IMG/VR virus record: IMGVR_UViG_2698536580_000003
Location: 1 to 55,905 of that record
Reading direction: 5' to 3' (one strand)
DNA: 55,905 bases
Source of the DNA: a virus
Taxonomy: Duplodnaviria; Heunggongvirae; Uroviricota; Caudoviricetes
Each line of letters starts with the position of its first letter. Position 1 is the first letter of the stretch. The notes beneath the pieces are model-generated. The model was given only the letters and a program-made list of their open reading frames with translations. It did not search any database and was not told the origin of the DNA. Positions 37,109 through 38,120 of the stretch are shown piece after piece. A program made the translations under genes and the position numbers.

Positions 37109-37237
37109 GATAGGCTCCCCTCGTAAATGAGGTGATTCACAAAATGAAACAAAAAAAGTACTGGTAGTACCAGCATCCTAAATTACAGATTCCATAACAT
37201 GCTCAATGCTGCTAATGGCAAGAAAGGATGTTTTTAA

Positions 37238-37450
37238 ATGACAAGCGATAATCTGGACTCCAAGCCCACAATTGAAGATGTTGATTTCAATCATTTGATC
37301 TGCGTCGCAGGAGGAATCATCGAGGATCTAAAAGGCCCATTTATATTCAAGGCTCCAGAAAATATTAGGCGATTACTTAATCATAAGGGAGTGAATGAAA
37401 TAAGTAATCTCTCTCAAAAATTTAATGCAGATTCTCCATCTTGCTATTAG
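37238..37450 (+). CDS. hypothetical small protein (70 aa), opposite orientation to late operon
   Basis: ORF with AAGGA RBS; palindrome upstream. Confidence 0.35.
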   Translation: MTSDNLDSKPTIEDVDFNHLICVAGGIIEDLKGPFIFKAPENIRRLLNHKGVNEISNLSQKFNADSPSCY

Positions 37451-37526
37451 AGTTCAGCAGCAGGCACTCAGTGAATGCCTGCTGTAACGACTACTCCAAT
37501 AATAATGGATGCTCTATGGATACATA

Positions 37527-38120
37527 CTAAAATATGGATGTTAAATAATTGCTAAGTCTTTTTGCATTCTTACAGAATGCCAAAGCATCTTCCTGAGTAC
37601 ATAAGAGCTTTCCTTGGGATATAGGCTTAATAGACTCTCCTGTTTTTTCATAGAGCTTAACAATGTCACTAGAAATTTTGTTTGCAGATTGGACATTTTT
37701 CAAGGCAGCGATACCTGAAGCCCGCCCTAAAGATGTCCCGTTGATCTCAATCCCCTTTTTAGATGCAAGCGTTATAGCGGTTAACTCCAATTCGCGCCAA
37801 GCTGAAAGTACAGCAACATTAGGCTGAGTACTAGCAAGACTCTCAAAAATATTGAAATTCTCAATGAGTTGTGTCGGCAGGACAGGATTTGTTCCCGGTA
37901 AATTTTTAATAACTTCTATACTTTTAGATTCTATTTCAAACATTTCTTTTTTAAATTTAATCTCATAGTCACCTAGCTTAACTGTATTAAGACGACATAA
38001 AACCATTATTATTTCTTTTTTTAAAGTAAAAAAGACAATCAAACAAGCAAGAACAATAAATAAAACATTGCCTTCTTTAAGAAGCATCTCTATCCAGTAA
38101 AAAAAAGTATAGTCCGTCAT
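37527..38120 (-). CDS. hypothetical membrane-anchored protein (197 aa)
   Basis: N-terminal hydrophobic helix VLFIVLACLIVFF; AT-rich. Confidence 0.55.
   Translation of the reverse strand: MTDYTFFYWIEMLLKEGNVLFIVLACLIVFFTLKKEIIMVLCRLNTVKLGDYEIKFKKEMFEIESKSIEVIKNLPGTNPVLPTQLIENFNIFESLASTQPNVAVLSAWRELELTAITLASKKGIEINGTSLGRASGIAALKNVQSANKISSDIVKLYEKTGESIKPISQGKLLCTQEDALAFCKNAKRLSNYLTSIF

What the first reader, a model, noticed from the sequence alone, without database searches (positions are those of the whole stretch)
37110..38120. Second AT-rich moron at the virion right end: membrane-anchored 197-aa protein plus convergent 70-aa ORF with palindromic operator
Between the lysis cassette and the HNH/cos region lies a 197-aa protein with a single N-terminal hydrophobic helix and no recognised domain (37527..38120, same strand as late genes), and a convergent 70-aa ORF (37238..37450) preceded by an imperfect palindrome ACTGGTA-g-TACCAG (37159-37173). 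This is a classic moron position; single-TM cytoplasmic proteins here are often superinfection-exclusion or abortive-infection factors.
Basis: partly seen in the sequence, partly recalled or inferred. Interest (0 to 1): 0.6.

Follow-up and report, generated by a model that had tools for sequence, protein, structure and literature searches.

The report
Prophage moron encoding membrane-anchored degenerate HEPN protein
A rare, AT-rich add-on gene sits between the lysis and packaging genes of an E. coli prophage. It encodes a membrane-tethered protein whose cytoplasmic domain has the fold of HEPN anti-phage RNases but lacks their catalytic residues, so it is probably a phage-conflict factor of a modestly new kind.

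Summary
Both ORFs exist at the stated coordinates. They lie in a 1.19-kb cargo at 36% GC (about 37109-38297) between Rz1 and HNH. The cargo is in only 20 of 5,426 complete E. coli genomes. In related prophages the same slot is empty or holds other cargo, so the moron reading holds.

Homologues at 36-69% identity sit at the same junction, on the late strand, in several different phage backbones. They keep about 34% GC and a conserved promoter-like element about 30 nt before the ATG.

The "palindromic operator" reads better as a terminator-like hairpin with a T-run on the late strand. The 70-aa ORF is not conserved with the gene and its coding status is unresolved.

Most likely function (inferred): a membrane-sited superinfection-exclusion or abortive-infection factor acting without canonical RNase chemistry.

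The parts
37109..38297 (.). Cargo (moron cassette) inserted between the Rz1 stop and the HNH start; 36% GC
   Evidence: Homology to sister prophages stops at 37108 or 37121 on the HNH side. It resumes at 38298-38431 on the Rz1 side. The empty site in L009 has 26 bp between Rz1 and HNH.
37527..38120 (-). 197-aa gene: TM anchor, helical stalk and a degenerate HEPN (DUF4145-like) domain
   Evidence: ORF. PGAP annotates it as a hypothetical protein. It matches PHROG 30030. Homologues at 36-69% identity keep the full length. Five of nine substitutions among near-identical copies fall at third codon positions.
38016..38069 (-). Codons 18-35: predicted single transmembrane helix, with N-out/C-in topology inferred
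   Evidence: Hydropathy peak at residues 20-38. Residues 1-19 carry net charge -2; K34, K35, R43 and K48 follow the hydrophobic core (read from the sequence). AlphaFold models a continuous helix over residues 4-72. The segment is conserved in homologues.
37533..37874 (-). Codons 83-196: HEPN-fold helical bundle
37611..37652 (-). Codons 157-170 (YEKTGESIKPISQG): remodelled loop at the position of the family's catalytic LRxLRNxAAH (Rx4H) motif
   Evidence: Alignments A2, A5 and A7 and hhalign. Y157, G161, K165 and G170 are invariant in the subfamily. The protein has no histidine.
38151..38179 (-). Promoter-like element (GTGATA, 17-nt spacer, TATACT); the -10 hexamer ends 30 nt before the ATG
   Evidence: Scan. 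Elements at the same distance from the ATG, with a 17-nt spacer, occur in L003, L004 and L016. An AAGTGa...GTAtAaT block aligns in the window, L003, L004 and L006. This is in silico only; the number of hits per region is at chance level.
37458..37484 (.). Strong GC-rich hairpin between the two convergent ORFs, 43 nt after the ORF197 stop, with no U-tract
   Evidence: Inverted repeat I8: 13-nt arms, 92% complementary. The - strand RNA folds at -30 kcal/mol with z = -4.0, and 0 of 200 shuffles fold as well.
37150..37175 (-).
   Evidence: Terminator scan. The fold is -8.4 kcal/mol on the - strand and -4.9 on the + strand. Clear terminators follow the homologous gene in L004 and L016. One copy, L001, carries a stem-breaking change.
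37238..37450 (+). Convergent 70-aa ORF; coding status unresolved and not a conserved partner
   Evidence: ORF. It matches PHROG 22590. Only 97-100% identical E. coli copies exist. It is absent beside diverged homologues. Its length is not significant (p = 0.12). AlphaFold from the single sequence gives pLDDT 62. Both variable sites are nonsynonymous, yet the stretch varies less than the flanking intergenic DNA (Fisher p = 0.008).
38099..38106 (-). T8 homopolymer tract in codons 5-8 of the 197-aa gene
   Evidence: A one-base deletion here in strain AR_0061 shifts the frame, and PGAP then calls a 186-aa product.

Best explanation
The locus is a self-contained moron in the lysis-packaging junction of an HK97-like lambdoid E. 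coli prophage. It carries one real gene.

What the product is (supported by tool results):
- A short N-terminal tail and one transmembrane helix.
- A long helical stalk with a conserved juxtamembrane motif.
- A C-terminal HEPN-fold domain.
- It descends from a widespread family of stand-alone, membrane-anchored DUF4145/HEPN proteins that keep the Rx4H RNase motif.
- In the enterobacterial phage subfamily the R, N and H of that motif are replaced by a different, equally conserved loop (YEKxGESxKPISxG). An RASGIAA motif is also conserved. The site has been rebuilt, not simply lost.

How it is expressed (inferred from sequence):
- It has its own sigma-70-type promoter and downstream hairpin/terminator elements.
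- No terminator separates it from Rz1, so Q-antiterminated late transcription should also read through it.

What it most likely does (inferred):
- The protein inserts N-out/C-in.
- It dimerises through the stalk, as HEPN domains generally do.
- It places a binding-competent but non-canonical HEPN module on the cytoplasmic face of the inner membrane.
- There it interferes with a superinfecting phage at or just after genome entry, as exclusion or abortive infection, by binding RNA, a nucleotide or a phage protein. It would not use the canonical Rx4H cleavage chemistry.
For: Moron status:
- Only 20 of 5,426 complete E. coli genomes carry it, against 1,313 genomes that match the flanking HNH/Rz backbone.
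- There is an empty site, and other cargo occupies the same slot elsewhere.
- The gene is 34% GC against 49-56% in the flanks.
- The cargo sits at 99% identity next to different endolysin types, GH24 and GH104.

Real gene under selection:
- Homologues at 36-69% identity have many invariant residues and a conserved N-terminus and TM segment.
- Substitutions are biased to third codon positions.

Fold and ancestry:
- AlphaFold pLDDT 91.
- Exhaustive phmmer finds 63 representatives of about 190 aa. Of the 63 sequences in the alignment built mostly from them, 34 hit DUF4145 and others hit HEPN families.
- hhalign gives 99.35% probability over 188 columns.
- A stepwise loss of the motif is visible: P0013 intact, P0016 and P0017 partial, phage subfamily complete.

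Parent family looks like single-gene defence cargo:
- No conserved neighbour gene in 80 loci.
- Three sampled contexts: a PIN/RHH toxin-antitoxin pair with PLD and SNF2 genes, a type III R-M system with AAA_21/RloB genes, and an integrase.
- Members with the motif intact occur in temperate phages D6 and UFJF_PfPro.
- DUF4145 is an experimentally proven abortive-infection RNase domain in RAZR/PD-T7-4, where R146 and H154 are essential (PMC13017515).

Position and regulatory signals are kept:
- Four backbones place the gene directly after the spanin genes on the late strand.
- A promoter-like element sits at a fixed distance from the ATG, and terminators follow the gene.

This prophage uses such slots for defence cargo: a PD-T4-10-like pair lies between Q and holin.
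Against: - No function was measured.
- The canonical catalytic residues are absent, so an RNase-type abortive-infection mechanism cannot simply be transferred from relatives.
- There are no PADLOC hits.
- Promoter-like matches occur at chance frequency per region. Only their shared position and alignment argue for function.
- The constant position and orientation directly behind the lysis genes fits a late-acting role (lysis accessory or counter-defence) as well as it fits a lysogenic-conversion role.
- Topology and dimerisation are inferred, not tested.
- The gene is found in no isolated phage genome and is rare, so selection for it may be weak or very context-specific.
Confidence: 0.5

Rival explanations
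1. Counter-defence decoy. The degenerate HEPN protein is made late, with the lysis genes. It neutralises host or rival HEPN-type abortive-infection nucleases, for example by forming inactive heterodimers or by soaking up the phage structural protein that triggers them. Alternatively it mimics the DUF4145-like N-terminal domain of type I restriction HsdR.
For: - HEPN active sites are composite across a dimer (PMC13017515), so a subunit lacking the motif could act as a poison.
- Known HEPN abortive-infection systems are triggered by late structural proteins: RAZR by portal (PMC13017515), Tha by a minor tail protein (PMC11087260), and HepS bound to the lambda J tail tip (PDB 9oik).
- The gene is always on the late strand with no terminator before it.
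- In phage D6 an active relative sits directly after the hdf-darA-ddrA-ddrB anti-restriction operon.
- Family member P0087 weakly matches the NCBIfam type I R-M endonuclease model (E 1.4e-5).
Against: - No active paralogue was seen in Enterobacteriaceae among the best 80 of 154 GTDB hits, so no obvious target is known.
- Counter-defence genes are usually early genes.
- A membrane anchor is odd for a decoy of soluble nucleases.
- The conserved own promoter-like element suggests expression outside the late programme.
Confidence: 0.15
2. Late-operon lysis accessory. It would be a membrane protein that tunes holin timing, lysis inhibition or spanin action, co-transcribed with the lysis cassette.
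For: - It lies immediately downstream of the spanin genes, on the same strand, in four different lysis-cassette types at protein identities down to 36%.
- It has a single-pass membrane anchor.
- No terminator lies between Rz1 and the gene.
Against: - More than 1,000 E. coli genomes carry the same HNH/Rz backbone without it; in the sister prophages inspected the slot is empty or holds unrelated cargo.
- It has no sequence or fold similarity to any lysis or structural protein in Pfam, PHROGs or BFVD.
- Its ancestry lies in chromosomal HEPN proteins unrelated to lysis.
- lambda bor occupies the same junction and is a lysogenic-conversion gene (my own knowledge), so position alone is weak evidence.
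Confidence: 0.12
3. The 70-aa ORF is a real, lysogen-expressed gene controlled through the palindrome as an operator. It works with or against the 197-aa protein, like an antitoxin, or like the antisense inhibitor gene ith of the 80alpha Tha system.
For: - The ORF has an AAGGA Shine-Dalgarno-like element 9 nt before the ATG and a PHROG family.
- The stretch varies less than the flanking intergenic DNA.
- Antisense 'noncontiguous operon' control of a prophage HEPN system has a precedent (PMC11087260).
Against: - The ORF is not found beside any diverged homologue, and there are no relatives outside E. coli.
- It is not annotated in any of the eight RefSeq copies inspected.
- ORF length is at chance level.
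- The fold prediction is low-confidence.
- Both observed substitutions are nonsynonymous.
- No promoter-like site lies upstream on the + strand.
- The palindrome is single-copy and pairs better on the - strand, where a T-run follows it.
Confidence: 0.08
4. Decaying remnant. It would be an inactivated HEPN toxin gene drifting toward loss, with no current function.
For: - The catalytic motif is lost.
- The gene is rare.
- One genome has a frameshift in the T8 tract.
Against: - The subfamily keeps about 40 invariant residues down to 36% identity, including the loop that replaced the motif.
- The full length is intact in 13 of the 14 copies compared.
- Substitutions are biased to third codon positions.
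- Its position and promoter-like element are retained across different phages.
Confidence: 0.05

Closest known systems
Membrane-anchored stand-alone DUF4145/HEPN proteins (uncharacterised family; consensus LAWP TM segment, RLKYKDLELEF juxtamembrane motif, SPRAAxLEAW...LRxLRNxAAH). Members include Escherichia phage D6 orf24 (YP_009914701.1) and Pseudomonas phage UFJF_PfPro XLE45413.1.
   Same: - Same length of about 190 aa and same three-part architecture.
- Full-length homology (hhalign 99.35%).
- The AWRxxE helix and the juxtamembrane K..E..F motif are kept.
- It is a single gene without a fixed partner.
- Some members are carried by temperate phages.
   Different: - The Rx4H motif (R149, N150 and H154 in P0087 numbering) is replaced by YEKxGESxKPISxG, and the LAWP motif is lost.
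- The window protein gives no direct Pfam DUF4145 hit.
- The subfamily is persistently about 34% GC and is tied to the lysis-packaging junction. Parent genes match their local GC content and sit in variable chromosomal neighbourhoods.
RAZR / PD-T7-4 (zinc-finger + DUF4145 HEPN abortive-infection RNase of E. coli; PMC13017515)
   Same: - A DUF4145-type HEPN domain is used in phage conflict in E. coli.
- It is a single-gene system.
- The HEPN domain needs oligomerisation.
   Different: - RAZR has an N-terminal zinc-finger domain and is soluble; this protein has a TM anchor and stalk.
- RAZR needs R146 and H154 for defence; this protein has neither.
- The window protein gave no PADLOC hit at all, so none to PD-T7-4; one distant family member of 63 hit it weakly.
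Prophage-encoded HEPN defence proteins Tha (S. aureus 80alpha; PMC11087260) and HepS (Salmonella Gifsy-1; PDB 9oik)
   Same: - Both are HEPN-fold proteins carried by temperate phages to act against competing phages.
- Tha shows how an antisense gene can gate such a system.
   Different: - Tha is a soluble RNase whose Rx4H motif is present and was tested for its role in protection (PMC11087260); HepS I take to be a comparable HEPN nuclease from my own knowledge.
- There is no detectable sequence relationship.
- The genome positions differ: tha lies in the lysogeny module.
Catalytically inactive HEPN-fold proteins such as MtlR/YggD and the sacsin HEPN domain
   Same: - They have the HEPN fold without Rx4-6H.
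- They work by binding partners or nucleotides. Anantharaman et al. 2013 (PMC3710099) predict binding roles for motif-less HEPN domains.
   Different: - They are soluble and not phage-borne.
- They show no sequence relationship to this protein.
- They have different conserved surfaces.
Classical lambdoid morons in the Rz-terminase junction (lambda bor) and membrane superinfection-exclusion proteins (HK97 gp15, P22 SieA). These comparisons rest on my own knowledge.
   Same: - The genome slot is the same, and the logic is the same: an optional gene with its own signals and deviant GC.
- The predicted location is the inner membrane.
   Different: - There is no sequence or fold relationship.
- Those proteins have no HEPN domain.
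- bor is on the opposite strand and encodes a lipoprotein.

Membership tests
HEPN superfamily | Up-down helical-bundle HEPN fold | tested here: met
HEPN superfamily | Rx4-6H catalytic motif | tested here: not met
   The protein has no histidine. The family's LRxLRNxAAH aligns to YEKTGESIKPIS.
Pfam DUF4145 (PF13643) | Match to the Pfam model at or above the gathering score | tested here: not met
   No Pfam hit at E <= 1 for the window protein. Of its 63 remote relatives, 34 hit DUF4145. The link to them is a profile-profile match of 99.35%.
TM-anchored stand-alone DUF4145 family | N-terminal TM helix, juxtamembrane R-L-K-Y-K-D-x-E-x-x-F motif and C-terminal HEPN domain in about 190 aa | tested here: met
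   The alignment is full-length. R43, K48, G50 and F56 are kept, as is AWRELE. The LAWP motif is not kept.
Moron (Hendrix/Juhala sense) | Present in some but absent from otherwise closely related phage genomes at the same site | tested here: met
   20 of 5,426 complete genomes carry it against 1,313 with the backbone. L009 is an empty site. L010-L012 hold other cargo.
Moron (Hendrix/Juhala sense) | Nucleotide composition unlike the flanking phage genes | tested here: met
   34-36% GC against 49-56% in the flanks. The same holds for homologues in other phages.
Moron (Hendrix/Juhala sense) | Own promoter and terminator; expressed from the repressed prophage | tested here: inconclusive
   A promoter-like element sits at a conserved distance from the ATG, and terminator-like hairpins follow the gene. 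The number of hits per region is at chance level, and no transcript data exist.
Known anti-phage defence systems (PADLOC-DB v2) | Match to any defence-protein model | tested here: not met
   No hit at E <= 1 for ORF197 or ORF70. Distant family members give only weak hits to HEPN effectors.
Phage lysis proteins (holin, antiholin, endolysin, spanin, releasin) | Sequence or fold similarity to a lysis family; required alongside the lysis cassette | tested here: not met
   There are no Pfam or PHROG lysis hits and no BFVD fold match at E <= 0.001. The same lysis cassette occurs without the gene in most related prophages.
Toxin-antitoxin or two-gene system (ORF197 + ORF70) | The two genes co-occur across diverged homologues | tested here: not met
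   tblastn finds ORF70 only in the 99%-identical E. coli copies. It is absent from L003-L008. The downstream genes of L016, L026 and L027 are ParB_N- and Mom-family genes (L016 by Pfam; L026/L027 inferred from matching ORF layout), not ORF70-like.
HEPN-TM two-gene system of PICIs | Separate HEPN protein and TM protein encoded as a pair | not testable with these tools
   It is known to me only from citations in PMC11087260 and PMC12948488; the primary paper is not in the library. Here the HEPN and TM parts are in one polypeptide, no PADLOC model matched, and I could not confirm whether PADLOC-DB v2 includes HEPN-TM models.

The most novel reading that the evidence does not exclude
The enterobacterial phage subfamily is a purpose-built HEPN pseudo-enzyme. 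Temperate phages took a membrane-anchored HEPN suicide RNase, rebuilt its active-site loop, and now express it with the late genes. Its role would be to disarm HEPN-type abortive-infection nucleases that fire on late structural proteins (the RAZR, HepS and Tha class), or to jam type I restriction through mimicry of the HsdR N-terminal DUF4145 domain. If so, it would be the first dominant-negative 'anti-HEPN' carried in a lysis-cassette slot.
Probability: 0.12. Interest if true: 0.8.

Novelty: new variant of a known kind. Interest (0 to 1): 0.45.

Why it matters
HEPN RNases are among the most common effectors of bacterial immunity. A membrane-tethered branch of the DUF4145 clade has not, to my knowledge, been characterised.

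This locus shows that temperate enterobacterial phages keep a version of that branch with three properties:
- the catalytic Rx4H loop has been replaced by another conserved loop;
- the gene is held at one genome position, directly behind the lysis genes;
- it keeps its own regulatory signals.

That gives a small, tractable single-gene cassette of 1.2 kb. It can be used to ask what a HEPN fold does at the membrane without its nuclease chemistry: exclusion, sensing or counter-defence. It also adds a concrete case to the view that the Rz-terminase junction of lambdoid phages is a cargo slot for conflict genes.

Tried and rejected
Searches that found nothing:
- Direct Pfam, PADLOC and NCBIfam scans of both ORFs gave nothing useful.
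- megablast and tblastn of the locus against 50,697 phage records and 72,556 plasmids gave no match.
- A profile search of PDB sequences returned only HepT at E = 0.6.
- The BFVD fold search had no match at E <= 0.001.
- The afdb50 fold library was unavailable.
- Rfam found nothing credible on 36900-38500.
- The GTDB genome scan with the phage-subfamily profile found no locus.
- Paper searches for the RefSeq accessions and the PHROG id returned nothing.
- Contig look-ups of the intermediate relatives P0013 and P0016 gave contigs too short to show context.
- The host of the L016 lineage could not be identified. It is not E. coli and not in the phage collection.

Ideas rejected:
- ORF70 as a conserved partner.
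- The palindrome as an operator.
- The 45-aa ORF at 38130-38267 as a leader gene. It lies in the most variable stretch, and I see no codon-position bias among its variable sites.
- PHROG 30030's Met39 start. Residues 1-38, including F7, W9 and E11, are conserved down to 36% identity.
- Target-site duplications or flanking repeats of the cargo. None is convincing.
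Full report
**Setting.** The window holds an E. coli prophage integrated beside tRNA-Thr(CGT) (54462-54537), with its integrase at 53284-54447. The late genes run on the - strand in this order:
- Q, 42150-42932
- an AT-rich two-gene cargo, 39829-41582
- holin, 39313-39648
- endolysin, 38833-39309
- Rz, 38457-38849, and Rz1, 38315-38638
- the finding
- HNH, 36758-37108
- small terminase subunit (P27 family) and large terminase subunit

**Observation check.**
- Both ORFs exist exactly where stated: 37527-38120 on the - strand (197 aa) and 37238-37450 on the + strand (70 aa).
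- The region is AT-rich. The gene is 34% GC and the cargo 36%, against 56% to the left and 49% to the right.
- The palindrome is a perfect CTGGTA-G-TACCAG at 37161-37173 and is unique in the window.
The - strand RNA folds at -30 kcal/mol with z = -4.0.

**It is a moron.**
- megablast finds the 1.2-kb stretch in only 20 of 5,426 complete E. coli genomes, always whole, on the chromosome and at 99% identity or more.
- The flanking HNH/Rz backbone matches 1,313 genomes.
- In strain W12-1 the slot is empty, with 26 bp between the Rz1 stop and the HNH start. In other sister prophages it holds a GrlR-family gene, a 184-aa hypothetical gene, or a divergent pair of hypothetical genes.
- Backbone homology ends at 37108 or 37121 and resumes at 38298-38431. 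The cargo is therefore about 37109-38297.
- The same cargo at 99% identity sits beside GH24 and GH104 endolysins, so it moves as a unit.

**What the 197-aa protein is.**
- Direct library scans are blank, apart from PHROG 30030, which has no assigned function.
- The large protein collection holds only seven close clusters (47-99% identity). All but one, a 172-aa form lacking the N-terminus, are full length with a conserved N-terminus and hydrophobic helix.
- An exhaustive phmmer pass over 1.84 billion representatives finds 63 proteins, nearly all 180-200 aa.
- I aligned 62 further proteins from these two searches with the window protein (63 sequences). Scanned one by one, 34 hit Pfam DUF4145. 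Others hit HEPN families: RiboL-PSP, Swt1-like and HepT.
- Their consensus is a hydrophobic LAWP segment, a juxtamembrane RLKYKDLELEF motif, then SPRAAxLEAW...LRxLRNxAAH, which is a HEPN Rx4H motif.
- Profile-profile comparison of the phage subfamily with 74 of these proteins gives 99.35% probability, E 5e-21, over 188 columns. Homology therefore covers the whole protein.
- AlphaFold2 with an 81-sequence alignment gives pLDDT 91.2. It models one helix over residues 4-72 and a helical bundle over residues 83-196.

**The catalytic motif is replaced, not merely decayed.**
- The protein has no histidine.
- Where the family has LRxLRNxAAH, with R149, N150 and H154 nearly invariant, the phage subfamily has YEKxGESxKPISxG. 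Y157, G161, K165 and G170 are invariant down to 36% identity.
- An RASGIAA motif (R133-G136) is also invariant. It is already present as RVSGIAA in P0013, the closest relative that still has the motif.
- P0016 and P0017 have lost the histidine only. The loss was therefore stepwise.
- Anantharaman et al. 2013 (PMC3710099) assign DUF4145 to the HEPN superfamily. They predict that versions lacking the conserved polar residues act as binding domains.
- In RAZR/PD-T7-4 the equivalent R and H are essential for defence (PMC13017515).
- Canonical RNase chemistry is therefore excluded by the sequence. A different chemistry at the rebuilt site is not excluded.

**Topology (inferred).** The hydropathy peak is at residues 20-38. 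The N-terminal tail has net charge -2, and K34, K35, R43 and K48 follow the core (and the sequence). This fits N-out/C-in, with the HEPN-like domain in the cytoplasm, as expected for a nucleotide- or RNA-binding fold.

**Context of relatives.**
- Motif-intact members are chromosomal and at local GC content.
- Three sampled members sit next to a PIN/RHH toxin-antitoxin pair with Ymh, PLD and SNF2 genes, next to a type III R-M system with AAA_21/RloB genes, or near an integrase.
- A GTDB scan finds 154 loci across many phyla. None of the 80 best is from Enterobacteriaceae.
- An all-against-all comparison of their neighbours finds no partner gene in more than 4 of 80 loci. The parent is therefore a stand-alone gene in variable, mobile-looking neighbourhoods.
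- Two temperate phages carry motif-intact members. In the P1-like E. coli phage D6, orf24 lies right after the hdf-darA-ddrA-ddrB anti-restriction operon. A Pseudomonas P2-like phage carries one beside its integrase.

**The phage subfamily keeps its place.** Every diverged homologue whose contig could be read lies in the lysis-packaging junction, on the late strand.

| Locus | Identity to window protein | Upstream genes | Downstream genes |
|---|---|---|---|
| L004 | 53% | holin_3_1, GH19, DUF2570 spanin | 72-aa ORF, HNH |
| L003 | 57% | Dam methylase, lysozyme, Rz | convergent 184-aa ORF, small terminase subunit |
| L016, L017, L026, L027 | 36-37% | holin_2_1, lysozyme, DUF2570/LysC | ParB, Mom, Terminase_2 (L016/L017 by Pfam; L026/L027 inferred from matching ORF layout) |
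| L006 | 67% | UmuD-like gene and two unknown genes | degenerate HNH |

- All these genes are 33-36% GC in flanks of 40-51% GC.
- The consensus scan finds a promoter-like element with a 17-nt spacer whose -10 hexamer ends 30-33 nt before the ATG in four loci: the window (GTGATA/TATACT), L003 (GTGACC/TATAAT), L004 (GTGTCA/TAGAAT) and L016 (ATTACA/TATGAT).
- An AAGTGa...GTAtAaT block aligns in the window, L003, L004 and L006.
- Clear intrinsic terminators follow the gene in L004 and L016.
- The number of hits per region is at chance level. The argument rests on shared position, not on counts.

**The palindrome and the 70-aa ORF.**
- On the - strand the palindrome forms a 7-bp hairpin followed by CTTTTTTTGT. 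It folds at -8.4 kcal/mol there and at -4.9 on the + strand. It sits at the HNH-proximal end of the cargo, where a moron terminator is expected.
- There is no second copy.
- Evidence against ORF70 as a gene:
  - It has relatives only in E. coli, at 97-100% identity.
  - It is absent beside all diverged homologues.
  - It is not annotated in the eight RefSeq copies inspected.
  - It is no longer than 11.5% of shuffles give.
  - Its predicted structure is poor, pLDDT 62 from the single sequence.
  - Its only two variable sites among 14 copies are both nonsynonymous.
- Evidence for ORF70 as a gene:
  - It has a Shine-Dalgarno-like AAGGA and a PHROG family.
  - It varies less than the flanking intergenic DNA, 2 sites in 213 nt against 17 in 323 nt (Fisher p = 0.008).
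- I treat its coding status as unresolved and reject it as a conserved partner.
- The 80alpha ith/tha antisense unit (PMC11087260) shows that such an arrangement can matter. Nothing here demonstrates it.

**Function.** Shown by the analyses:
- It is an optional cassette.
- It is a real gene under purifying selection. Five of nine substitutions fall at third codon positions, and about 40 residues are invariant at 36% identity.
- The product has a TM anchor and a HEPN fold.
- The canonical catalytic motif is replaced.
- The position and upstream element are conserved.

Inferred:
- It is expressed from its own promoter in the lysogen, and also by late read-through, because no terminator precedes it.
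- It has N-out/C-in topology and forms dimers.
- It has a role in phage conflict.

I favour membrane-sited exclusion or abortive infection by binding, for three reasons. The parent family looks like single-gene defence cargo. Temperate phages carry active members. This prophage already fills the neighbouring slot with a PD-T4-10-like defence pair: the 155-aa ORF hits PD-T4-10_A at E 3.4e-10, and the 429-aa ORF hits PD-T4-10_B at 1.1e-7.

The constant late-strand position directly after the spanins keeps two rivals alive:
- a late-acting counter-defence decoy, which is attractive because HEPN abortive-infection systems such as RAZR and Tha fire on late structural proteins;
- a lysis accessory, which is weakened because the gene is dispensable in more than 1,000 related prophages and has no similarity to any lysis protein.

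**Verdict.** The protein has a recognisable fold after all: it is a new, motif-remodelled branch of the DUF4145/HEPN superfamily with a membrane anchor. The operator and partner-gene part of the finding is not supported. Interest is moderate. The locus is a new variant of a known kind, and the defence-versus-counter-defence question is open and cheaply testable.

Noticed in passing
window 39829-41582 (- strand): The 'first' AT-rich moron, between Q (42150-42932) and holin, is a two-gene unit. The 155-aa ORF matches PADLOC PD-T4-10_A (E 3.4e-10). The 429-aa ORF matches PD-T4-10_B (E 1.1e-7) and Pfam DUF6575 and DUF7226. Related prophages L001 and L002 lack it and have Q directly upstream of holin.
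   Followed up: partly
window 15605-18407 (+ strand): A GtrA-like gene, a family-2 glycosyltransferase (GtrB-like) and a 506-aa ORF with no domain hit lie just beyond the tail-fibre assembly gene (18641-19144), in an AT-rich stretch of 31-33% GC over 17001-18000. This looks like an O-antigen serotype-conversion module.
   Followed up: partly
window 38099-38106: A T8 homopolymer tract lies in codons 5-8 of the 197-aa gene. E. coli AR_0061 (L033) has a one-base deletion here that shifts the frame, and PGAP then calls a 186-aa product. This could be a slippage-prone on/off site or a sequencing error.
   Followed up: partly
window 38151-38179; L003 2505-2533; L004 3806-3834; L016 5940-5968; L006 about 1625-1660: A promoter-like element (AAGTGa, 17-nt spacer, GTAtAaT) sits at a fixed 30-33 nt from the ATG. 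It travels with the gene across phages whose proteins are only 36-69% identical.
   Followed up: yes
L114 (Escherichia phage D6, NC_050154.1) 4001-4558: The P1-like phage D6 encodes a motif-intact member of the TM-DUF4145 family (orf24, LRSLRNEAAH). It lies immediately after the hdf-darA-ddrA-ddrB anti-restriction operon and before the portal gene. A Pseudomonas P2-like phage (L115, 3992-4558) has one beside its integrase.
   Followed up: partly
L016 and L017, 1617-4376 (opposite strand, between Q and holin): The phage lineage carrying the 36%-identical homologue also carries a 537-aa AAA_15/AAA_21 ATPase (PADLOC NsnB at 1e-47; AriA-like) and a 380-aa ORF in the Q-holin slot. This is another defence-like cargo at the equivalent position.
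   Followed up: partly
window 38130-38267 (- strand): A 45-aa ORF ends 10 nt before the ATG of the 197-aa gene. It lies in the most variable stretch of the locus (11 variable sites in 194 nt), and I see no codon-position bias, so it is probably non-coding.
   Followed up: partly
L006 and L008, downstream of the homologue (about 2370-2480 in L006): The HNH gene that follows the 67%-identical homologue appears degenerate. Its reading frame begins MPPRTPKAC... and then breaks, which suggests a decaying prophage in that sample.
   Followed up: no
window 54462-54537 and 53284-54447: tRNA-Thr(CGT) lies immediately next to a tyrosine-integrase gene. This is the likely attachment site and the right boundary of the prophage.
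   Followed up: no
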